This document shows positions 47,980 through 58,813 of a stretch of 64,000 nt of DNA, one piece after another. The DNA is from Longimicrobiales bacterium (GTDB taxonomy: Bacteria; Gemmatimonadota; Gemmatimonadetes; Longimicrobiales; Gaopeijiaceae): NCBI GenBank assembly GCA_965249725.1, contig CBDFMQ010000002.1:1248001-1312000 (forward strand), written 5' to 3'. How positions within the stretch are numbered: the stretch's first letter is position 1; every line of letters starts with the position of its first letter. Both the position numbers and the translations under genes were made by a program. The notes under the pieces are model-generated. The model had not been told where the DNA came from. It made no database searches and was given only the letters and a program-made list of their open reading frames with translations.

Positions 47980-48564
47980 TCAGGCTTCACTCCCCCACGG
48001 CCGGATGAAGTCCTCGGGATCGATCCCGAGACCATCTGCGATTCGCGTGATGTAGTTGAAGTACGCCACGACCTGCGTGGCGTCGTGAATCGCCACGTCG
48101 TCGAAGCCCAAGGATCTCAGTTGGTCGAGGTGTGCGGGCGTTACGCTGCCCTGCTGTCGGGTCAGCCGGATCGCATGGGCGCAGAGTGCTCGGTCGGCCT
48201 CCGAGAGCGCCGCGGTGGTCCAGTCCCGGGCCACGGCGTGCACGAAGGCATCGGCCTCCTCATCGGTCTCGAACATCGTCTGGACCTCTTCCCGGAGGTC
48301 GTGCGCGTGCGCTTGCGTTCAGTACCGACAGCCAAGTTCGGCCGAGACCACGGTTGCGAGCATCTCTCGTTGAACACGAGACAGCGGAGACGCCCCCATC
48401 ATGACTGCCCCGTAGAGCCGCATGCTGGCGTCCAGAGTGGGAGGGGTAGGACTCATGATCCGGATGATGTTCCACACACGTCCCGCCCGTTTCAGAGCCG
48501 CATCGTACTGCCTCTTGAGGATTCCGGTTGCCTCTGCAATCGGCGTGAGTCGGATCCAAGCCAT
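47980..48564 (-). CDS. AhpD/CMD-family peroxidase-like protein, probable selenoprotein (UGA=Sec at 48321-48319)
   Basis: ORFs 48319-48564 and 47980-48276 are in frame, separated by one TGA plus 14 sense codons: REMLATVVSAELGCRY-U-TQAHAHDL...YFNYITRIADGLG; 194 aa joined. Confidence 0.85.
48283..48300 (-). promoter_or_regulatory. Candidate bacterial SECIS hairpin
   Basis: GACCTC-CGGGAA-GAGGTC beginning 18 nt after the in-frame TGA; G-rich apical loop. Confidence 0.6.
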
Positions 48565-49174: not shown

Positions 49175-49470
49175 CGCCACATCTCCGGTCCCTGGCCACT
49201 CAGCGCCGTCGCTTGGTGCCGGTAGTATCCGTACAGGAGCACCGACCCGGACAGCACGACGTTCACCAGTGACATCTGGTCGAAGGGTCCCTCGAGTGCA
49301 CCGCTCATGATGGCCTCCGGTATGTTCCAGATGGGCAAGAGGATGGAGAGCATGAGAAGCAGAAGGTTCGCGGCGAACGCGAGGTCGGCCACGACGAAGA
49401 TCGGTGTGGCGAGCAGGTAGACCCCGATGAAGCCTGCGTGCCCTTCCAGGGTGCATGCCCGGTCGATCAA
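49162..49470 (-). CDS. Short hypothetical membrane protein (possibly internally deleted)
   Basis: Hydrophobic ORF filling the HAD-DinB gap; candidate TTG 49470 overlaps the HAD stop. Confidence 0.45.
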   Translation of the reverse strand: MIDRACTLEGHAGFIGVYLLATPIFVVADLAFAANLLLLMLSILLPIWNIPEAIMSGALEGPFDQMSLVNVVLSGSVLLYGYYRHQATALSGQGPEMWRWGR

Positions 49471-50174
49471 GCGAGCCCCATGAGCCCGGTCAGCGTCTCG
49501 AGGTCCGGAACCTCGAGGTCCGGCTCCGCGCTGGCGGGCGCAGTCGCCCCCGCCCCCGTCTTTCCGGCCCGCCGATTCACCCACACACACGAGAGTCCGA
49601 GTTCACGAGCGGGACCGATGTCGTGATAGAGACTCTGCGCCACGTGTAGGATCCCCTCCGGGCCGTGACCCAACCGGTCGAACGCAACCGAGAAATTCTC
49701 GTGCGACGGCTTGTACGCACCCACCTGCTGCGCCGTGACCACTTCATCGAAGTCCACACCGAGCTTCCCGGCACTGTGCTCGAAGAGGTCGTCGTCGATA
49801 TTCGAGATAACGGCGAGTCGGTACCGACTCTTCAATGTCGCGAGAACTTCGACCGTGTCGGGGAATGGAATCCAATCCCTGATCGACTCGGCAAGGGAAT
49901 CACGCTCTGTCGCGGAAGGAGTGAAGCCGAGCGCGTCTCCGAAGCCCTCTACGACCTCGCCCAAGATCTCCCGGTAGGGACGATACCCCTCAGCCTCCAC
50001 CGACGACTCGATCCTGCCGAAGAGCGCCAAGACCTTCTCGTCGTCTCTCGTAACGCCATGATCGACCAGGATGGACTGGAGTGCCGCGAGGATTCCGGAC
50101 TCCCAATCGATTAGAGTGCCGTAGCAGTCGAAGGTGATGCAGTCGAACGCTTCGAAGTTCATGGTCGAGATCAC
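49467..50174 (-). CDS. Haloacid dehalogenase type II-like hydrolase
   Basis: TFDCYGTLIDWE, ISN, YKP, HVAQSLYHD. Confidence 0.92.
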   Translation of the reverse strand: MISTMNFEAFDCITFDCYGTLIDWESGILAALQSILVDHGVTRDDEKVLALFGRIESSVEAEGYRPYREILGEVVEGFGDALGFTPSATERDSLAESIRDWIPFPDTVEVLATLKSRYRLAVISNIDDDLFEHSAGKLGVDFDEVVTAQQVGAYKPSHENFSVAFDRLGHGPEGILHVAQSLYHDIGPARELGLSCVWVNRRAGKTGAGATAPASAEPDLEVPDLETLTGLMGLA

Positions 50175-50416
50175 CGTTTCCGGAATCGCTCAACGATGAT
50201 CCCGATCATCGGACCGATGAGGCCACCCACGGTCGCGCCAATCACAGTCATGACTGCCATGGGATTGAGGTGCTGGACCGCAAGTCCGCCGCTGGCCACC
50301 GATCGGTATAGGCTCATGGCGGCGAAGAGTCCGCCGACCGCCGCCGCGCCTATGAGTGTCCAACGAAGCGTGGGGCTGGATCGGGGACCCGTTCCCAGCT
50401 CCGGAGGTGGGCTCAT
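50171..50416 (-). CDS. Small 2-TM protein (81 aa)
   Basis: ATG 50416 overlaps the SulP stop; stop overlaps the HAD start; glycine-rich TMs. Confidence 0.65.
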   Translation of the reverse strand: MSPPPELGTGPRSSPTLRWTLIGAAAVGGLFAAMSLYRSVASGGLAVQHLNPMAVMTVIGATVGGLIGPMIGIIVERFRKR

Positions 50417-51933
50417 TCCTCGACCTCCTCGGTTGGATGCCAGTCGAGCACACCCTGGAGAATGCGCTCGGCGTGTTCGGGTACGCCGACCAACTCCACC
50501 TCGAATCCTCCCTGCTTCGCCTCGTCCATGACTTCCTTCAGCGCCAGGGCCCCGGTCAGATCGATGCGCCCGAGCCCACCGAGATGCAGGACCAGTCGAT
50601 CGGCCTCCCGGGCCTCGGAGAGGCGCTCCGAGGCTATCTGCTCGAGGTAGGCCGCCGATCCGAACCACAGCACTCCCTGAGGCTTCAGATGGACACCCCG
50701 TTCGTCGGTCCACGATTCCACGCCCGGCCTCAACTCCCGCCAAATATGGACCGCAACGCCCGCCAAGATCCCCAGCACGACGGCCTGCTCGATGTGCGGC
50801 GCGAGCGATAGGGTGAAGACAAGCGTTATCCACCCCACGCCCGCCTGAGCGCGAGAGATCCTCCAGAGCGAGGCCAGGAGTCCCAGACGGATGAGCGGAG
50901 CCACTGCCGCGATCACGATGGCTGCGAGAATCGCCCGCGGCAGCGGAGCGAGGATCTGGGCGAACGGCAGGAAGCTGAGTACCGCGATACCCGTGACGGC
51001 ACCGCTCCATCGGGTGCGGGCTCCCGACAGATAGTTGAGGCTGCTCCGCGAGAACGACCCACCTACGGGGAATCCTCCGAACAGGCCAGCCGCTACGTTG
51101 GCGGCTCCCTGGCTGATGAACTCGCGATCAGGACTCCAGGGCATCCGCTCCTTGGTAGCATAGACCCGCGAGATCGAAGCCGCCTCGGCGAAGCCAACCA
51201 GGGCGATCACGAAGCCGGGGAGGATCAGCACCGGCAGGCTCACCCACGGGAGGTCGATGTCCAGTGGCGGCAGACCTACTCGAATATCACCGACGGTCGG
51301 GCCTCCGTATCCAGTCGCGACCGAGAACGCGAGGCCCACCACAGTGGCTATGAGCACGCCGGGCATCAGCGGGTGAACGCGCCGTCCCCCGATGATCACC
51401 GCCACCGTGACGACACCGAGCACAAGGGACGCTGCCTCCCATGAGCCCGGATGTGCCAGGGTCCAGAGCGCTCCCTGAAGCACGCCGTCATTCGCGGCTG
51501 TGACCCCCGCCAGTCCGGGAAGCTGCGAACTGATGATCAGGATCGCTGCGCCGGAGGTGAAGCCGTCGAGCATGGGCCTGGACATCATGTACGAGATCCA
51601 ACCGGTCTTGAGGGCCCCCACCAAAACGCGTGCCGCACCCACGACCAGAGCCAATAGCGCCGCCAGCTTCACATACTCGATCGACCCTGGGACGGCCATC
51701 GGCACGAGCGCCCCCAACGTGAGAAGGGCAGTCAAGGCGACCGGGCCCGTCTGTAGGTAGGGGGAGGACGCGAAGCAGGCCGCCGCGATCGGCGCCACAG
51801 CCGCTGCGAAGAGCCCATGCTGGCTGGGGAGGCCCGCCAACTCGGCGTAGGCCATGGCCTGTGGGATCAGCACGAGAGCCACGCCGACGCCGGCCACGAA
51901 GTCCCTCGCAGACGGGCGTTGAGCTTCCGTCAT
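50413..51933 (-). CDS. SulP-family anion permease with STAS domain
   Basis: DFVAG...IPQAMAYAELAGLP, GPVA, GGSFSRS, C-terminal LWFG...IDLTG; ATG 51933 overlaps upstream stop. Confidence 0.93.
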   Translation of the reverse strand: MTEAQRPSARDFVAGVGVALVLIPQAMAYAELAGLPSQHGLFAAAVAPIAAACFASSPYLQTGPVALTALLTLGALVPMAVPGSIEYVKLAALLALVVGAARVLVGALKTGWISYMMSRPMLDGFTSGAAILIISSQLPGLAGVTAANDGVLQGALWTLAHPGSWEAASLVLGVVTVAVIIGGRRVHPLMPGVLIATVVGLAFSVATGYGGPTVGDIRVGLPPLDIDLPWVSLPVLILPGFVIALVGFAEAASISRVYATKERMPWSPDREFISQGAANVAAGLFGGFPVGGSFSRSSLNYLSGARTRWSGAVTGIAVLSFLPFAQILAPLPRAILAAIVIAAVAPLIRLGLLASLWRISRAQAGVGWITLVFTLSLAPHIEQAVVLGILAGVAVHIWRELRPGVESWTDERGVHLKPQGVLWFGSAAYLEQIASERLSEAREADRLVLHLGGLGRIDLTGALALKEVMDEAKQGGFEVELVGVPEHAERILQGVLDWHPTEEVEE

Positions 51934-52799
51934 GCCATCATCCCCACCAGGGCCTCCTCTGCGAGGGCGGCCAACAGATCGGCGGTGCCGTTCGCCCGAC
52001 CGACCCAGTGCTCGCGGATCGGGCCCAATCCCTCGAGGCGTGTCTCTTGCTCCACCGCCCGCAAGCGAGCTTCCCGGCCCAACCACGAGAGCACCCCGCC
52101 CGGGTCCTGCGAAATGAGTCCCTTGAGGACAAAGGCTCGCTCGCCGGAGCGTAGGCCCAGCTCCAGATCGTCGGCGCAGCGGGCGAGATCGCATCGAAGG
52201 AGGATGAGGCCACTCCGTACCGGAGGCAGAAGCGAGGCCAGGAAGGCCTCGGCCCCCTCCCTTCTCGGATCCGTGATGCCTTCGGCATCCACGAGATGTC
52301 GCGGCGTGACGTCCAGAGCGCCGAGGTCGGCGACCTCGGATCTCAACACGTCCTGGAGCAGCGTGGCCCAAGGACCGTAAAACGGTCCACCCACCTCTTC
52401 CACACGCCGCAGGAAGAGCGGCACCCAGGGCAGTAGGTGTTCCCAGAGCAGCGCCGCCCTGCTGTTCCGTAGAAGCCGGGCCGCCGCCGCGTCGCTTTCC
52501 AGACCCTCGGCCTCGGCGAGGCTCGCCGCCAATCCGAGAAGCCCACTCAGATGATCGGGCTCGTCGGGAGCGTCCTGCCCGAGGGCTCTCCAGAATCCGG
52601 CCACTCGGTCCCGGGCTTCCCCCCCGAGCATGCCCTCGTTCCCGAGGTAGACGGACGCGTATGGTTGGAGCTGCATCAGGAAGACGTCGGCGTACGTCTC
52701 CCCACCCGGCGGTGCGGACAGTTCGAGCAGGTCGGCGAGCTTCCCGTGTTCCTCGGCTGGGGGCTCTGCCAGGGCGGCTAGCGCCCGGAGCAACTCCAC
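51930..52799 (-). CDS. TorD/DmsD-family molybdoenzyme chaperone
   Basis: PYASVY, EPDHL, EHLLPW; start GTG 52799. Confidence 0.88.
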   Translation of the reverse strand: MELLRALAALAEPPAEEHGKLADLLELSAPPGGETYADVFLMQLQPYASVYLGNEGMLGGEARDRVAGFWRALGQDAPDEPDHLSGLLGLAASLAEAEGLESDAAAARLLRNSRAALLWEHLLPWVPLFLRRVEEVGGPFYGPWATLLQDVLRSEVADLGALDVTPRHLVDAEGITDPRREGAEAFLASLLPPVRSGLILLRCDLARCADDLELGLRSGERAFVLKGLISQDPGGVLSWLGREARLRAVEQETRLEGLGPIREHWVGRANGTADLLAALAEEALVGMMA

Positions 52800-52827
52800 G
52801 TGCGCTCCTCGGTAGGGGTCAGATCGA

Positions 52828-55743
52828 TCATGTCCCGTCGTCGGCCTCACGTCGATGCAACTGATACGCCTCCGGCTGAGGGCGCACAGGTCGGTCGAAC
52901 CACTCCGGCCGACGTGTACCATCCGGGCTGACCTGGTCGGCCGGGCGGGTCAGGTCGAGCCACTCTCTGAATATCTCACGAGACCTCGTGGTGTCGACCC
53001 GAATGTCTCCGGCGCTCTCTCCAGGGTCGGCCTTTTGGACCCGGACCGCCTGGTGCCAACAGTGCATCCCCGAAATCGGATCGGGATGGACCGGGAATGT
53101 GAGATTCTGATTCACACCGACGTCAGCCCACCAGATTCGGCCCGTATCTGGATCAGCCGAGTCGTACGCGCCTCCACCCGTAATCCGGCGCATGAACCAC
53201 TCGTTGCCCGACTGGTTCAACGACACGGCAGCCGACACCTGACGCTGCCCCTCGGGTTGAATCTTCCACCGCCCCATGTGGTGGCTGCACGCCACCACCC
53301 CCGGCTTGATGGCCTCAGTGACCCACGCCTTGAGCACGAAGTGCCCCAGGTCCGTCTCGACCCGCATGAGATCGCCGGTCGCAACTCCGTGAGGAGCCGC
53401 ATCGTTGGGGTGGATCCAGAGGGGGTTGGTGTGGGCGATCTCGTCGAGCCACTTCGAGTTGCCGCTCCTGGTGTGGATCTGCACGGGCACCCTGAAGGTG
53501 GGCAGAAGGACCATCTGATCGCTCGCCAAGTTCTGGCGGTGAATGTGGCTCTTGATGTACCCGGGAAGGGCCAACTCCGGCCAACCCCACGCCTCCAGGG
53601 TGGTCGAGAAGAACTCGAGACGCCCCGATGGCGTCGGGAAGCCGCGCCGCACGGAATCGTCCAGCATGATCCCGACGCATCGGCGCTCCTCATCGTCGTC
53701 TGAGGCCTTCGGCGCAGACACCGTATGAGGCGTCGAAGGCTTGTCAGCCCGGCTGAACACTCTGCCGAGCTCATCGGTACCGATCCCCTCCAACTCGGCT
53801 TCCGGCACCTCTTCCTCGTAGAGCGCCCCCACCTTCCGTCGCACCTCGAACGCTCCGTAACGCCGCATGTACTCCAGTGGGGTCAGGCCTTCCTTGGCCG
53901 CGGACTCGGGGAGACCCGGGACCGAGTGATCGAACATCCACCCGTAGTATTCGTCTACCGAAAGGGGCTTCCCCGGCTCCTTCTTCGACTCGAAGTACTG
54001 TCGTATCCCGAGCGTGCCATCGGGGTCGATGCGCCAGGAGAGCTCCATCCAGAACTCGTTCTCCTCCCACACTTCTCCCGGATTGGCCTCGCGGGTGTCG
54101 TCGACATTCTCACCCAGCCGCTCCCTGGCTACGCGGAGCACGGGCTGCCGGAAGCCCACCCACTGGCCGTCGTACTGCTCGTAAGAGTGAACGTCGTGTC
54201 GCTCTGAGCCGAGGCCCATGGGCAGAATGTAGTCCGCGTACTGGGCGGTCTCGTTCCACGTCGGTGTGAGAGCCACGTGCATGCCGACGAGTGCCTCGTC
54301 CGTGAGCGCCTCGATCCAGGAGAAGCCGTCGGGATTCGTCCAGACCGGGTTGTAAACACGAGTGAAGTACGTGTCGAGCTTGCCCCTGCCCTCCAGAAGT
54401 AAGTGCGGGAGCAGGATGGACATCTCGTGGTACGACAGCGGGTACTCGCGGGGCCACAACAGCTCGTTCCACTCGGGGGGACCCGGGGGATTGTAGATGG
54501 GCTTGGGCGTGAACTTGTTCCACGCTGCGGGATGCGTCCCGCCCTCGGTGGCTACGGAGCCGGTAAGCGCACAAAGCATGTAGAGCGTACGCGCCACCTG
54601 CCATCCCCCGAGGTTGCCCGACGCGGCGCTACGCCAAGTGTGGACGGCGAGGCGGGTTCCCGCCTTGGCAACCGTTTCCGCAACTCCCTTGAGGGAGTCG
54701 GGATCAACCCCGGATTCGGCTGACGCGTATTCGAACGTGTACTCTGCGTACAGTTCCTTCAGCACGTTCTCGAAGTGCTCGAAGGTGGCCTCCTCCGTTG
54801 GATGCCTGGCCTGGAGGTACTCTCGCCAATTCCACCAACGCCGCACGAAATCCCGGTTGTACAGGTCGTTCTGAATGAGGTAGTTGGCGATTGCCAGGTT
54901 GATCGCGGCCTCGGAGCCCGGATAGGGTGCGACGTAGTGGTCGGCATGAGTCGCCGTGTTCGAAAGACGGGTGTCGAAGACGATGACCTTCGCCCCACGC
55001 TGGCGTGCTTCGATGATCCGCTGGGCATGCGGATTGAAGTAATGCCCGGCTTCGAGATGGCTCGAGATGAGGAATATGACGTCGGCGTGTGCGAAGTCCG
55101 GGCTGGGGCGGTCCGACCCTACCCACAAGTTGAAGCCGACCCTGGCCCCGGACGAACAGATGTTCGTGTGGGAGTTGTGCCCGTCCACGCCCCACGCAGC
55201 CAACACCTTGTTGGCGAACCCGGCTTCGCCCGGACGTCCTACATGGTACATGACCTCGTTGGCGCGTCCCGACTGCAGCGCCGCACGGATACGCTCGGCG
55301 AGCACATCGAGCGCCTCATCCCAGCTCACGCGTTCCCATTTTCCTTCACCCCGTCGACCCGCACGTTTGAGAGGGTGGAGAATGCGGTCCGGATCCGTGA
55401 CTTGGTTGAGCGTAGCCGGGCCCTTGCCGCAGTTGCGGCCCCTGGAGCCCGGATGCTCCGGATTCCCCTCGAATTTCCGTACTTCCAGGGTGTCCCGATC
55501 GACGTACGCAAGGAGGCCACACGCCGATTCGCAGTTGAAGCAGGTGGTGGGCACGAGCATGTATCGGCGCTCCACCCGGGCGGGCCAGGCGGACGAGTCC
55601 AGCTCCACCCAGTCGTTCCACCGCTCCTTGGGTGGGAAGGCGGAAAGGTGGACCCGGCTGGGACCCGGATAGAAGGTCTCACCACGCGCCTCAACCTCGG
55701 CCCGGGCCGCGGACACACGTTTGTTAAGTTTGTTTAAGTCCAT
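52828..55743 (-). CDS. Molybdopterin (bis-PGD) oxidoreductase catalytic subunit, no Tat signal
   Basis: TCFNCESACG...RNCGKG FS0 motif, RILHPLKR, SHTNICSS, TAQYADYILP, GFPTPSGRLEF, WIHPNDA. Confidence 0.92.
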   Translation of the reverse strand: MDLNKLNKRVSAARAEVEARGETFYPGPSRVHLSAFPPKERWNDWVELDSSAWPARVERRYMLVPTTCFNCESACGLLAYVDRDTLEVRKFEGNPEHPGSRGRNCGKGPATLNQVTDPDRILHPLKRAGRRGEGKWERVSWDEALDVLAERIRAALQSGRANEVMYHVGRPGEAGFANKVLAAWGVDGHNSHTNICSSGARVGFNLWVGSDRPSPDFAHADVIFLISSHLEAGHYFNPHAQRIIEARQRGAKVIVFDTRLSNTATHADHYVAPYPGSEAAINLAIANYLIQNDLYNRDFVRRWWNWREYLQARHPTEEATFEHFENVLKELYAEYTFEYASAESGVDPDSLKGVAETVAKAGTRLAVHTWRSAASGNLGGWQVARTLYMLCALTGSVATEGGTHPAAWNKFTPKPIYNPPGPPEWNELLWPREYPLSYHEMSILLPHLLLEGRGKLDTYFTRVYNPVWTNPDGFSWIEALTDEALVGMHVALTPTWNETAQYADYILPMGLGSERHDVHSYEQYDGQWVGFRQPVLRVARERLGENVDDTREANPGEVWEENEFWMELSWRIDPDGTLGIRQYFESKKEPGKPLSVDEYYGWMFDHSVPGLPESAAKEGLTPLEYMRRYGAFEVRRKVGALYEEEVPEAELEGIGTDELGRVFSRADKPSTPHTVSAPKASDDDEERRCVGIMLDDSVRRGFPTPSGRLEFFSTTLEAWGWPELALPGYIKSHIHRQNLASDQMVLLPTFRVPVQIHTRSGNSKWLDEIAHTNPLWIHPNDAAPHGVATGDLMRVETDLGHFVLKAWVTEAIKPGVVACSHHMGRWKIQPEGQRQVSAAVSLNQSGNEWFMRRITGGGAYDSADPDTGRIWWADVGVNQNLTFPVHPDPISGMHCWHQAVRVQKADPGESAGDIRVDTTRSREIFREWLDLTRPADQVSPDGTRRPEWFDRPVRPQPEAYQLHRREADDGT

Positions 55744-55748
55744 CTATC

Positions 55749-55773
55749 TAATTGCTTACACATCAATGGGTTA
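55749..55773. promoter_or_regulatory. 25-bp symmetric IHF-like motif between NrfD-fusion and Mo-subunit genes
   Basis: TAATTGCTTACACATCAATGGGTTA; right half CATCAA-N4-TTA is one mismatch from WATCAANNNNTTR. Confidence 0.5.
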
Positions 55774-55774
55774 G

Positions 55775-57313
55775 TCATGCTAATGGAACGGCCTGACCGG
55801 CCTGCACGTAGGCGTGCTCGTAGGCCGCCAGACCCAGGAGACCGAGAACCACTACGCCCCCGCCAATCCATGGTGCGAACAACCCGGCCAAGGACAGGAT
55901 GGTCCCCGCCCAGAACCATCGGCTGAACCGTCCGCGGGTCATCTCCACGACCGCCAACCGCGCGTGGGCACTGACATGGGGGAGCGTGACTTCGCCCAAG
56001 ATCATGAGAAGGTGCACGGCCGCAGCGCCCGCAAAACACACACGGAGTACGTTGGCTGCGGCCCCATCCCAAATCGGGGCCAACAAGGACAAGACTCCTG
56101 CCCCCGCCATCACGCACTGGACCAGGAGATGCGGTGGCAGGAGAGGGTTCTGCCACAGGTCGCGAGCCTTGGCCTGAGCGAACAGGTAAGCCGTGTAGAT
56201 GGCGGTCATGGCCGCGAGAGGCCCTCCTGCCCAGGCAAGGCGTCCCGTCAGGCCTATACGGCCGGTAATCTCGGCACCAAGGTGGAGGACGAGCACCGCC
56301 CCGTAGCCGCTGATGATGACACCGCCCCGGACCAGCCAACTTCGCCACTGCGGGCGGGTGAAGATCATGTAGAACCGCTCGGGATGCTCGAGATCCCAAA
56401 TGAGCAGCACCCCCGTCACCGCCAGGAAGGCCAGCCCCACCACCGGGGCGCCGAACGTCCACAGCGAGCTGGTCCCGGAGAGCACCCCGGCCAGAATGAG
56501 CAGCAACGGCACGAGGTATGCACCCGCGGCGACCGACTTGGTCCACGTATAGAAGCTCACCCGCCAATCCCAGGGAGCCCTGTGCAGTACATCGTAGGAC
56601 AGAACGGCCGCGGCCGAGCTGTTCCAGGGGCCCGGGTGCCCCGAGGGGACCTGGTGCGGGACGTTTCCCTGTTCACTCCACATGAACAAGCCGCCATCGG
56701 GCCTTCGGGCGGCCAGGGGATCGAGGGTGACCTGATCCGCACCCTTGTAGTAGAGCTTCGGCAGGGTCTCCTTCTCGGGACGCCGCACCGTGACGGCGTC
56801 TCGATTCACGATCTGGTTGACCGCCGAGGTCGGGTCGGTGAGATCGCCCACCAGCAGCGCCTGTGTGGGGCAGACCACCACGCAGGCGGGCTCCAGGCCC
56901 ATGTCGATGCGGTGAGCGCAGAAGTTGCACTTCTCCGCCGAATGGTCCACGGGGTTGATGAAGATGGCGTCGTACGGGCAGGCAGCCATGCACGCCTTGC
57001 AGCCGATGCATATCGACTTGTCGAAGTCGACGATGCCGTCCGGACGCGCGTGCATGGCCGAAGTCGGACAGGCCGTCACGCAGGGCGCGTTGGCGCACTG
57101 GTTGCACCGAGTGACCTGAAAGGAGCGCCGGGTCTGGGGATACTGCCCCACGTCGACGTACTTCACATAAGTGCGGGTCACGGACAGCGGGACTTCGTTC
57201 TCCGACTTGCACGCCGTGGTGCAGGCGTGACAACCGATGCAGCGGGTGTGATCCACGACTTTCGCCCATTGGGGCGCGTCGGTCTTGGGGGCCGACAGCG
57301 TGTGGGTCTCCAT
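55775..57313 (-). CDS. Four-cluster FeS protein (DmsB/NrfC type) fused to NrfD/PsrC membrane anchor
   Basis: CIGCHACTTAC, CNQCANAPCVTACP, CIGCKACMAACP, CNFC...PACVVVCP; then multi-TM with DLEHPERF, SWLVRG, QAGQ. Confidence 0.93.
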   Translation of the reverse strand: METHTLSAPKTDAPQWAKVVDHTRCIGCHACTTACKSENEVPLSVTRTYVKYVDVGQYPQTRRSFQVTRCNQCANAPCVTACPTSAMHARPDGIVDFDKSICIGCKACMAACPYDAIFINPVDHSAEKCNFCAHRIDMGLEPACVVVCPTQALLVGDLTDPTSAVNQIVNRDAVTVRRPEKETLPKLYYKGADQVTLDPLAARRPDGGLFMWSEQGNVPHQVPSGHPGPWNSSAAAVLSYDVLHRAPWDWRVSFYTWTKSVAAGAYLVPLLLILAGVLSGTSSLWTFGAPVVGLAFLAVTGVLLIWDLEHPERFYMIFTRPQWRSWLVRGGVIISGYGAVLVLHLGAEITGRIGLTGRLAWAGGPLAAMTAIYTAYLFAQAKARDLWQNPLLPPHLLVQCVMAGAGVLSLLAPIWDGAAANVLRVCFAGAAAVHLLMILGEVTLPHVSAHARLAVVEMTRGRFSRWFWAGTILSLAGLFAPWIGGGVVVLGLLGLAAYEHAYVQAGQAVPLA

Positions 57314-57463: not shown

Positions 57464-58813
57464 TCAGAAGCGGTTGTTCACCACGTTGTTGAAGATGGAG
57501 CCGAACTGATAGCTGAAACCGGCCCGAATATTGAACTCGTAGTCGCTCGCCCGTTCACGTCGACGTAGCAGAATCTCCTCGTCGGTCAGCCCCCCTAGGC
57601 GGAGGAAGATCTGATCTCGAATCCGCTCCCAACTGCCACCGGTGTTGAACCGAAGGCCTCGGAATACCCGAATACTCACATTGCCGTTCAGCTCGATACG
57701 GTTCTGTTCCAGGTCGTCGAGAAAGGACGAAGCCTCCAGAGCCAACCAGGAGTCGCCCCACGTCTGACGCTGGAAGAGCCTCGCCTCGAGACTCTGCCCA
57801 GGGCGCGTCTCGGTCAGCTTGCGGAACTCGGTCTCCTCTTCCCAGTCGAAATACTGGACGTTTACTCGGTAGGTCATGGTCAGCGACCGCCGAGGGGCCT
57901 CCTCGTAGGGCCAGAAGCTGTACTCGATTCCCGGTCCGACTTCCAAGCCGAGGTCCTGATTCGATCTGGTGGACGCGCTGGCCTCCGATTCGAATGCTAC
58001 CGACCAGTGATCGGCCAATGCATAGACGATCTCTTGATTCAGGTTCCAGTTGTCACGCGTGTCCACAACCGTAGAACTGTCGCTCAGCTGGAGTTCCTCT
58101 CGTGAGTAACTGCCAAAACCGCTGAAGCGGAACTTCCAAGTGGGCGTGGTTCGACTCGCGGATAGATTGCCCCGGATCCTCGCTTCGTTCTCAGAAGACT
58201 CCTCGTCGTAGTTCCCGTTCAGGCCGACGTTGAATACCCAAAAATCCCAAGGATCCTCAACCTCGTCGCCTGTCACTAGCCGATCCGTGAGGTCTCGCGA
58301 CTCACCCGAACGCTGCACCTCCAGCCCCTCCCCGCTTCCCGCCAACACCGAATAGCGGGCCAGTCCGATGGCGAGAACCTGAGAGATGCCCCTCAGGTTC
58401 TCCTCGGACGTATCCGACCCCAACGACGCGTAGACGAGATTGTCGTCCAGTCCCTCGAGTTCCTGGAGCCCGATAAAGTCGAAACCGTACTCCCTGCCGC
58501 CGCTAGCGTTCGTTTGGCTGGTCATGATGAGATGGACCTGCCCGAGCGTACGGTCCCGGACCCAGTTCACCCAATCGATCTCGGTCCGATAGTAGCTCGA
58601 GTTGCAGATGCGACCCGAGCAATCGAAGAAGACGCGGAGGGCCCCCTGATTGGGGGCGACCTCAGAATCGGCCGCCTCTTGGGCCCGGCTCGCCCAGGGT
58701 GCCAGTAGAAGAACTGCCGCGGTGCCTGCGCCGAGGATAGCGCCCCGCAACAGCCGAGACCTCTTGGGGCCTCTACGCATCACAGTGCTCACAGGTCCGT
58801 CGATCATCCCCAT
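57464..58813 (-). CDS. Putative outer-membrane beta-barrel protein
   Basis: Signal peptide, alternating strands, ends SYQFGSIFNNVVNNRF. Confidence 0.72.
   Translation of the reverse strand: MGMIDGPVSTVMRRGPKRSRLLRGAILGAGTAAVLLLAPWASRAQEAADSEVAPNQGALRVFFDCSGRICNSSYYRTEIDWVNWVRDRTLGQVHLIMTSQTNASGGREYGFDFIGLQELEGLDDNLVYASLGSDTSEENLRGISQVLAIGLARYSVLAGSGEGLEVQRSGESRDLTDRLVTGDEVEDPWDFWVFNVGLNGNYDEESSENEARIRGNLSASRTTPTWKFRFSGFGSYSREELQLSDSSTVVDTRDNWNLNQEIVYALADHWSVAFESEASASTRSNQDLGLEVGPGIEYSFWPYEEAPRRSLTMTYRVNVQYFDWEEETEFRKLTETRPGQSLEARLFQRQTWGDSWLALEASSFLDDLEQNRIELNGNVSIRVFRGLRFNTGGSWERIRDQIFLRLGGLTDEEILLRRRERASDYEFNIRAGFSYQFGSIFNNVVNNRF

What the first reader, a model, noticed from the sequence alone, without database searches (positions are those of the whole stretch)
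50171..57313. Tat-less Mo-oxidoreductase operon coupled to a SulP transporter: candidate cytoplasm-facing sulfur/selenium oxyanion system
Seen: FeS-NrfD fusion, Mo subunit, TorD-type chaperone, SulP, small TM protein and HAD, with short gaps or stop/start overlaps. Neither the Mo nor the FeS subunit has a twin-arginine signal. The predicted Mo-ligand region reads HNSHTNICSS. Established: Psr/Phs/Arr/Ttr enzymes are Tat-exported, whereas SoeABC sulfite dehydrogenase is Tat-less and cytoplasm-facing. Inference: an uncharacterised quinone-linked enzyme acting inside the cell on sulfite, thiosulfate or a similar oxyanion, with SulP moving substrate or product. The substrate cannot be determined from sequence.
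Basis: partly seen in the sequence, partly recalled or inferred. Interest (0 to 1): 0.72.

Follow-up and report, generated by a model that had tools for sequence, protein, structure and literature searches.

The report
Inward-flipped molybdoenzyme with dedicated sulfate transporter
This is a real gene cluster for a membrane-bound molybdenum enzyme predicted to face the cell interior; it belongs to a family described in 2008 for which I found no published assay, and it most likely oxidises toxic sulfite to sulfate, which the neighbouring transporter would export.

Summary
The anatomy is confirmed, but the HAD gene lies outside the given coordinates, and it and the small membrane gene are local passengers. 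The core (FeS–NrfD fusion, then a Tat-less, Cys-liganded Mo subunit) is a known, apparently unassayed family: Duval 2008's Tat-less 'Unk' subgroup, the green-sulfur-bacterial cytoplasmic Psr-like complex (proposed sulfite oxidase) and the 'psrBC–psrA' of Marinimicrobia (Wright 2014). New here: (1) the anchor's Lys/Arg bias points to the FeS side in 90 of 90 fusions and away from it in 73 of 75 Tat-bearing relatives, so it is predicted to be flipped; (2) an AU test rejects a clade with SoeA-like proteins (p=4e-6), so inward-facing arose separately; (3) the SulP subfamily is nearly dedicated (37 of 44 copies beside the Mo gene) but optional (40 of 76 carriers). Neighbours elsewhere (MBL–rhodanese, TusA, DsrE2, TauE) point to sulfur; nothing points to selenium. 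Best guess: cytoplasmic sulfite:quinone oxidoreductase with sulfate export (0.5). This scan found the same family before on other DNA (four earlier findings).

The parts
55775..57313 (-). Fused electron-transfer/anchor subunit 'BC' (512 aa): PsrB/TtrB-like FeS domain plus 8-helix NrfD/PsrC-type anchor, predicted to be inverted so that the FeS side is cytoplasmic
   Evidence: Pfam Fer4_11 and NrfD; AlphaFold model pLDDT 87.6 with 8 long helices at 250-511; Foldseek hits 2vpw_B and 2vpw_C; K+R 11 on the FeS side against 1 on the far side
52828..55743 (-). Mo/W-bisPGD catalytic subunit 'A' (971 aa), no Tat leader; FS0 cysteines C68/C71/C75/C105; predicted Mo ligand Cys196; invariant R170, H192, R201, R212 near it
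   Evidence: Pfam and NCBIfam hits, none over an equivalog cut-off; PDB alignments; invariant in 77 of 77 rows; model closest to ArrA 6cz7 and PsrA 2vpw
51930..52799 (-). TorD/DmsD/NarJ-type maturation chaperone (about 289 aa; start inferred from a ribosome-site-like motif)
   Evidence: PF02613; next to A in 48 of 80 loci of set A, 0 of 80 of set B (Mrp in 52 of 80 there) and 34 of 40 of set C
50413..51933 (-). SulP/SLC26 anion transporter with STAS domain (506 aa); the only SulP found in this genome; member of a subfamily mostly found beside the Mo gene
   Evidence: PF00916 and PF01740; one full-length hit in the genome; 37 of 44 copies within 9 kb of A
50171..50416 (-). 81-aa protein with two hydrophobic segments; lineage-local, not part of the conserved system
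   Evidence: No Pfam hit; 4 of 80 loci, all close relatives; 0 of 40 and 0 of 80
49467..50174 (-).
   Evidence: TIGR01428 138.6 bits, cut-off 125.4; 2 of 80 loci; 0 of 40 and 0 of 80

Best explanation
The cluster encodes a two-subunit molybdoenzyme without an export signal, whose fused FeS–NrfD anchor is predicted to sit inverted in the membrane, and which most likely oxidises sulfite made in the cytoplasm to sulfate and passes the electrons to the quinone pool, while the neighbouring SulP would export the sulfate. Path: sulfite from sulfur catabolism (persulfide dioxygenase-like and TauD-like enzymes; inferred) binds a cationic pocket at Mo-Cys196 (predicted) -> FS0 -> FeS clusters of the B domain -> quinone site in the first helix bundle of the anchor, beside the FeS domain (by homology with PsrC) -> respiratory chain. 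The chaperone matures A. Shown: gene content, lack of a Tat motif, fusion, charge bias, family placement, SulP co-location. Inferred: topology (strong), sulfur substrate (moderate), sulfite specifically, direction, and the SulP cargo (weaker).
For: Topology: K+R higher on the FeS side in 90 of 90 fusions (mean 11.4 vs 0.9), lower in 73 of 75 Tat-bearing Azoarcus-type anchors (2.1 vs 5.7) and in the Sulfurovum anchor (4 vs 10). Tat pattern absent in 120 of 120, 77 of 77, 90 of 90 and 49 of 49 scorable of 120, but found in 14 of 24 longer representatives that include the sister groups. Sulfur context among full-flank loci: MBL–rhodanese 17 of 40, 39 of 53, 7 of 30; TusA 9, 29, 5; DsrE2 9, 29, 6; SulP 12, 22, 20; control loci: SulP 0 of 80, MBL 0 of 80, TusA 3 of 80. 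SulP and TauE (Pfam: sulfite exporter) rarely co-occur: both 2, SulP only 68, TauE only 8 of 203. R. jostii copy follows dsrE and tusA genes. This genome has no PAPS reductase, sulfite reductase or Sat-type ATP sulfurylase hit (95.8% complete), so SulP is unlikely to feed sulfate assimilation; it has TauD-like and MBL–rhodanese genes. In green sulfur bacteria the cytoplasmic complex was proposed to oxidise sulfite from Dsr (PMC3906813). Established redox potentials (recalled): sulfite oxidation to quinone is downhill, menaquinol to polysulfide or thiosulfate is uphill, and an inward-facing site has no obvious redox loop to drive that.
Against: No member has been assayed in the papers I could reach. 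It is not a SoeA orthologue; the named relatives nearest by structure are reductases. In the least biased sample only 10 of 33 long loci had any sulfur gene or transporter by my HMMs (these missed two divergent TauE). In this genome no persulfide gene lies next to the cluster, and a Tat-bearing sulfite-oxidase-fold protein with a cytochrome c partner exists, so sulfite could be exported and oxidised outside. The MBL neighbours pass no NCBIfam dioxygenase cut-off. One Marinimicrobia clade expressed 'psrABC' most under anoxic to sulfidic conditions (PMC5688066; whether that copy is this family was not checked). Loci are kin, so counts overstate independence.
Confidence: 0.5

Rival explanations
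1. Cytoplasmic sulfane-sulfur oxidoreductase: it exchanges electrons between quinone and polysulfide or persulfide (free, or carried on TusA/DsrE2), as the 'Psr' label for Marinimicrobia assumes.
For: PsrA is the top PDB sequence hit; tusA and dsrE2 lie directly beside the core in many loci; Wright 2014 and Hawley 2017 read Marinimicrobia psr genes as polysulfide reductase.
Against: Separate from the Psr/Phs references in both trees; four invariant basic residues near the ligand fit an oxyanion better (inference); MBL–rhodanese neighbours suggest persulfide is already handled upstream; SulP and TauE carry oxyanions; PMC8359478 warns direction cannot be read from sequence.
Confidence: 0.2
2. 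Thiosulfate (or tetrathionate) enters by SulP and is reduced or cleaved inside by this enzyme, giving sulfide for cysteine synthesis in a cell that cannot assimilate sulfate.
For: Best NCBIfam hits are PhsA for A and TtrB for B, both far below cut-off; B-C-A order as in ttr; no sulfate-assimilation genes found; rhodaneses are frequent neighbours.
Against: Quinol-driven thiosulfate reduction is uphill (recalled); the exporter family TauE can replace SulP; TtrA and PhsA references branch outside the clade.
Confidence: 0.13
3. Cytoplasmic detoxification of an As, Sb or Se oxyanion.
For: Top Foldseek hit is ArrA; R170/H192/C196/R201 align with R/H/C/K of ArrA; the Tat-bearing sister in Azoarcus KH32C lies beside arsA and acr3.
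Against: No arsenic or selenium gene family among the recurring neighbour families I annotated from the 160 loci; the ArxA-like reference branches elsewhere.
Confidence: 0.07
4. The substrate is not an inorganic sulfur species; sulfur genes gather here only because the enzyme needs sulfur for its cofactors.
For: 16 of 40 full-flank loci in set A and 23 of 33 long metagenome loci have no sulfur neighbour by my HMMs; Moco genes are neighbours in some loci.
Against: A near-dedicated SulP subfamily (37 of 44), TauE and the reported green-sulfur-bacteria link are not explained by cofactor supply.
Confidence: 0.1

Closest known systems
'Unk' clade, Tat-less subgroup with 60-kDa B subunit (Duval et al. 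2008, PMC2500031)
   Same: B before A, no Tat on A, no separate C gene, oversized B; its list names Rhodococcus RHA1, whose pRHL3 Mo protein is 58% identical to this one with the same layout.
   Different: Duval read the subgroup as lacking the anchor; here the oversized B is shown to contain an 8-helix NrfD domain. SulP and chaperone were not mentioned in the parts I read.
Cytoplasmic Psr-like complex of green sulfur bacteria (PSRLC3; seen only second-hand in PMC3906813, PMC5473276, PMC6338057, PMC9324843)
   Same: Two genes, psrBC fusion, cytoplasmic, proposed sulfite oxidation; the five species named by Wright match the five in Duval's table.
   Different: There it is proposed to take sulfite from Dsr in anaerobic phototrophs; here no sulfite-reductase-family gene was found. 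I could not obtain a Chlorobi sequence to compare.
'psrBC–psrA' of Marinimicrobia (SAR406) and Marine Group II archaea (Wright et al. 2014, PMC3906813)
   Same: psrBC fusion upstream of Tat-less psrA; metagenome locus L402 has the neighbourhood described for fosmid FPPP_13C3 (rpe, rpiB, tkt, Moco genes) and its A is 54% identical to this one.
   Different: Interpreted there mainly as polysulfide reduction; no SulP or TorD described in the passages read.
SoeABC sulfite:quinone oxidoreductase (Allochromatium vinosum, Aquifex aeolicus)
   Same: Tat-less, Cys-liganded, NrfD-type anchor expected to be inverted, quinone-linked (PMC8076601, PMC10100899).
   Different: A-B-C order with a separate anchor; 25-30% identity over part of the length; monophyly rejected. 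It is what the enzyme likely works like, not its family.
PsrABC (Thermus, 2vpw), ArrAB (Shewanella, 6cz7), TtrBCA
   Same: Fold, FS0 motif, Cys ligand, PsrB-like and PsrC-like partners.
   Different: Tat-exported and outward-facing; 18-20% identity in structural alignment; all NCBIfam equivalog scores far below cut-off.

Membership tests
Duval 2008 Unk, Tat-less subgroup | B gene before A, no separate C gene | tested here: met
   BC found in 39 of 40, 53 of 53 and 29 of 30 full-flank loci
Duval 2008 Unk, Tat-less subgroup | B subunit about 60 kDa instead of 26 kDa | tested here: met
   512 aa; 108 fusions of 495-560 aa among the 160 loci
Duval 2008 Unk, Tat-less subgroup | No Tat signal on A; FS0 motif; Cys at the Mo ligand position | tested here: met
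   the Tat test is a regular expression, not a dedicated predictor
Duval 2008 Unk, Tat-less subgroup | Clusters with listed members | tested here: met
   100/100 clade with the RHA1 pRHL3 protein; that this protein is accession YP_709030.1 was not verified
Green sulfur bacterial PSRLC3 | Two genes, psrBC fusion, cytoplasmic A | tested here: met
   architecture matches the descriptions
Green sulfur bacterial PSRLC3 | Sequence orthology to Chlorobi proteins | tested here: inconclusive
   no Chlorobi sequence retrieved; link rests on the matching species lists
Marinimicrobia/MGII psrBC–psrA (Wright 2014) | psrBC fusion, Tat-less psrA, group II fosmid neighbourhood | tested here: met
   L402 context and 54% identity; taxon of L402 inferred from context only
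SoeABC | No Tat, cytoplasm-facing | tested here: met
SoeABC | A-B-C order, three separate subunits | tested here: not met
   BC fusion then A; reference locus L472 is A-B-C
SoeABC | A nests in the SoeA/bSreA lineage | tested here: not met
   AU p=4.06e-06; references L271 and L275 were labelled SoeA-like by architecture and a recalled motif, not by a named record
SoeABC | Sulfite:quinone oxidoreductase activity | not testable with these tools
   needs an assay
Psr/Phs, Ttr, Arr/Arx | Tat export of the catalytic subunit | tested here: not met
Psr/Phs, Ttr, Arr/Arx | NCBIfam equivalog cut-off or nesting in the clade | tested here: not met
   PhsA 195 of 694 bits, ArrA 105 of 1600, TtrA 97 of 1750; trees, which held ArxA-like but no ArrA reference

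The most novel reading that the evidence does not exclude
The enzyme takes sulfur directly from protein-bound persulfide (TusA/DsrE2/rhodanese relay) and oxidises it at molybdenum with quinone as acceptor, giving heterotrophs across many phyla an oxygen-independent, energy-yielding sulfane-oxidation route apart from Dsr, sHdr, Sox and persulfide dioxygenase; it arose when a Tat-exported B-C-A enzyme lost its leader, fused B to C and flipped its anchor.
Probability: 0.1. Interest if true: 0.8.

Novelty: new member of a known kind. Interest (0 to 1): 0.45.

Why it matters
The family is large (76 of 301 sampled Gemmatimonadota genomes; about 1600 matching stretches estimated in GTDB) and has been labelled 'unknown', 'sulfite oxidase' and 'polysulfide reductase' by different fields since 2008. 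If it oxidises sulfite, the 'psr' genes used to argue that Marinimicrobia and Marine Group II archaea reduce polysulfide would instead mark sulfite clean-up by heterotrophs, the missing sulfite step of several green sulfur bacteria would be settled, and cytoplasmic sulfite:quinone oxidoreductases would have evolved twice. The charge-bias switch between sister groups is also a clean natural case of a membrane anchor predicted to have inverted. Cultured carriers (R. jostii RHA1, T. roseum, Natrinema) make all this testable. This window itself adds only one more copy.

Tried and rejected
Hidden Tat leader: upstream frames are closed and no indels in two runs. Single-chain B-C-A fusion: long open frames of 1300-1700 aa are shadow frames; the one joint frame (L104) loses the anchor's C-terminus to a frameshift. 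An 'Sqr' in this genome proved NDH-2-like on reading. Taurine/sulfonate link: no Xsc over cut-off, one TauD-like gene on another contig, and none among the neighbour families annotated. Chlorobi sequences: not reached through a Prosthecochloris plasmid protein, a BC search, the atlas or a metagenome motif scan. Gregersen 2011, a Chlorobaculum sulfite paper and the ArrA structure paper were not held. AnrA (antimonate reductase) as identity of the Azoarcus-type sister group is a recalled lead; one search gave a listing only and did not test it. Expression: no RNA holder listed. Promoter and terminator scan at chance level. Cluster look-up gave no useful names. No complex prediction was run, since A with B is a textbook pair.
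Full report
Observation. The six genes are there, on the minus strand, with gaps of 31, 28, -4, -4 and -4 nt. Pfam and NCBIfam give FeS plus NrfD in one 512-aa chain, a 971-aa Mo-bisPGD subunit, a TorD-type chaperone, SulP with STAS, an 81-aa orphan and a type II HAD. HNSHTNICSS is at 189-198, and Cys196 aligns with the conserved cysteine of PsrA and ArrA. There is no Tat motif and no room for a missed leader; contigs from two public runs show no indel.

The conserved core. The Mo subunit has very many close relatives: the best 120 proteins are all 70-90% identical, and the best 80 of 626 confirmed GTDB stretches span Gemmatimonadota, Acidobacteriota, Actinomycetota, Chloroflexota and others. 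Named plasmids add Thermomicrobium roseum (59%), Rhodococcus jostii RHA1 (58%) and haloarchaea (51-54%). It is in 76 of 301 sampled genomes of the window's phylum and 39 of 48 of its family. The BC fusion was found nearby in 39 of 40, 53 of 53 and 29 of 30 loci with full flanks (set A = best 80 for the window protein, set B = best 80 of 628 for the RHA1 protein, set C = 40 of the 76 carriers chosen by me, at least three of which repeat set A). The chaperone is replaced by Mrp in most of set B. The small protein and the HAD occur only in the closest relatives.

Which way it faces. The AlphaFold model of BC (pLDDT 87.6) has eight long helices after the FeS domain and matches PsrB and PsrC. Using loop limits from this model, Lys+Arg were higher on the FeS side in 90 of 90 fusions (90 of the 108 full-length ones; means 11.4 and 0.9). 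The bias was reversed in 73 of 75 anchors of the Tat-bearing Azoarcus-type group (2.1 and 5.7; two ties) and in the Sulfurovum anchor (4 and 10), whose A gene begins with an SRRSFLK leader. A Tat pattern was absent from 120 of 120 and 77 of 77 A proteins, 90 of 90 BC proteins and 49 of 49 scorable metagenome copies (71 of 120 could not be scored), yet found in 14 of 24 longer representatives. Rows within each group are kin, so this is one contrast seen many times, but it is clear. By the positive-inside rule (established) the FeS side, the quinone site and A are predicted to be cytoplasmic.

Where it sits. In a 48-row quick tree and a 24-row careful tree, the window protein falls in a fully supported clade with RHA1, Thermomicrobium, Natrinema and two Tat-bearing proteins; its sister is a Tat-bearing group that holds the Azoarcus KH32C B-C-A enzyme (97/96 in the careful tree); PhsA, Psr-like, TtrA, ArxA-like and SoeA-like references lie outside. 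Thirteen rows (partial, redundant or very distant) were dropped before the first tree. Holding the five Tat-less members together with the two SoeA-like rows is rejected (p-AU 4.06e-06, LG+G4, long branches present). The SoeA label rests on Tat-less A-B-C architecture and a recalled motif. So the inward orientation most likely arose separately from SoeABC, from an exported B-C-A ancestor.

What is known. Duval 2008 (PMC2500031; I read parts 1-3 of 6, search passages and the whole table S1; the alignment file could not be read) defined an 'Unk' clade with a subgroup that lacks Tat and C and has a 60-kDa B; its table lists Rubrobacter, Rhodococcus RHA1, Nocardioides, four Chloroflexales and five green sulfur bacteria. 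Wright 2014 (PMC3906813; passages) describes psrBC fusions before Tat-less psrA in Marinimicrobia, Marine Group II, Chloroflexota, a haloarchaeon and the same five green sulfur bacteria, where sulfite oxidation was proposed. My locus L402 has the neighbourhood given for their fosmid and 54% identity to the window's A. [quoted passage not shown] PMC8076601, PMC10100899, PMC8359478, PMC5688066, PMC8232776 and PMC3362086 were read as passages. Nine searches showed no assay of a member; subscription journals are mostly outside the library, and supplements other than Duval's table were not opened. The scan's own notes hold four earlier findings on what reads as this family, all leaning to sulfite; they came after my reading was fixed and are not independent evidence.

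The SulP link. Orthologues of this SulP (E<1e-60) occur in 44 of the 301 genomes; 40 of these also carry the Mo gene and 37 have it within 9 kb, but 36 of 76 carriers lack it. It is the only SulP found in this genome. In other sets SulP was near A in 20 of 80, 25 of 80 and 8 of 33 long metagenome loci, against 0 of 80 control loci. SulP and TauE seldom co-occur (2 both, 68 and 8 alone, of 203), and TauE is undercounted. The link is therefore specific but optional, which suits a product exporter.

Substrate. Recurring neighbours are MBL–rhodanese proteins, rhodaneses, TusA, DsrE2, ArsR regulators, TauE and occasionally an Sqr-like protein: at least one sulfane-sulfur gene in 17 of 40, 40 of 53 and 8 of 30 full-flank loci, but only 9 of 33 in the least biased sample. 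Most MBL neighbours keep a PxH..S.C-type motif but pass no curated dioxygenase cut-off. R170, H192, R201 and R212 are invariant in 77 of 77 rows and align with R, H, K and Y of ArrA; that these ArrA residues line its oxyanion site is recalled. This genome (95.8% complete) shows no PAPS reductase, sulfite reductase or Sat, but has TauD-like and MBL–rhodanese genes, TatC, and a Tat-bearing sulfite-oxidase-fold protein with a cytochrome partner. The last weakens any claim that the cell needs this enzyme to remove sulfite. Redox potentials (recalled) favour sulfite oxidation over quinol-driven reduction at an inward-facing site. I put sulfite:quinone oxidoreductase with sulfate export at 0.5, sulfane-sulfur redox 0.2, thiosulfate or tetrathionate 0.13, As/Sb/Se 0.07, other 0.1.

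Verdict. A real, intact copy of a known but apparently untested family, with a lineage-specific transporter. Its value lies in tying three literatures to one family and in the testable inversion and SulP results. Interest 0.45.

Noticed in passing
G000:C3:213507-215036 (L329:15505-16932, minus strand): MBL–rhodanese–rhodanese gene with one in-frame TGA where most homologues have Cys; the genome has tRNA-Sec and a molybdopterin-family gene with one TGA. Candidate selenocysteine persulfide-dioxygenase-like protein.
   Followed up: partly
L339:7452-9481 (G000:C1, about 659.5-661.5 kb): Tat-bearing sulfite-oxidase-fold protein followed by a cytochrome c; SorAB/SoxCD-like pair with no sox genes noticed nearby.
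   Followed up: partly
L084 and L171-L250: Tat-bearing B-C-A-TorD sister group in Proteobacteria; in Azoarcus KH32C it lies in an arsenic island with an arxXSR-like regulator. Possibly AnrA-related (recalled, untested).
   Followed up: partly
L165:7836-11178 (Sulfurovum mangrovi plasmid): The Tat-bearing sister A gene is split by frameshifts in this record and is not annotated there.
   Followed up: partly
L349 (G262) and L345-L348, L350: SulP orthologues away from the Mo gene; in G262 the SulP travels with MBL–rhodanese, TusA and DsrE2, suggesting the transporter belongs to the sulfur module as much as to the enzyme.
   Followed up: partly
L081:6084-6362: CsoR/RcnR-family repressor directly before the core in T. 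roseum; ArsR-family regulators do the same elsewhere. Possible persulfide sensors.
   Followed up: no
window 57464-58813 (-): 449-aa unannotated protein (a homologue has a weak DUF481 hit) upstream of the cluster in four close relatives only.
   Followed up: partly
window 47980-48564 (-): Two adjacent small genes that look like halves of one carboxymuconolactone decarboxylase/peroxidase-like protein, split the same way in L001 and L052.
   Followed up: no
L005, L009, L011, L017, L022, L023, L025, L030, L057: In many Pyrinomonadaceae-type loci the gap between BC and A is filled by inserted small genes (DinB, addiction-module antitoxins).
   Followed up: no
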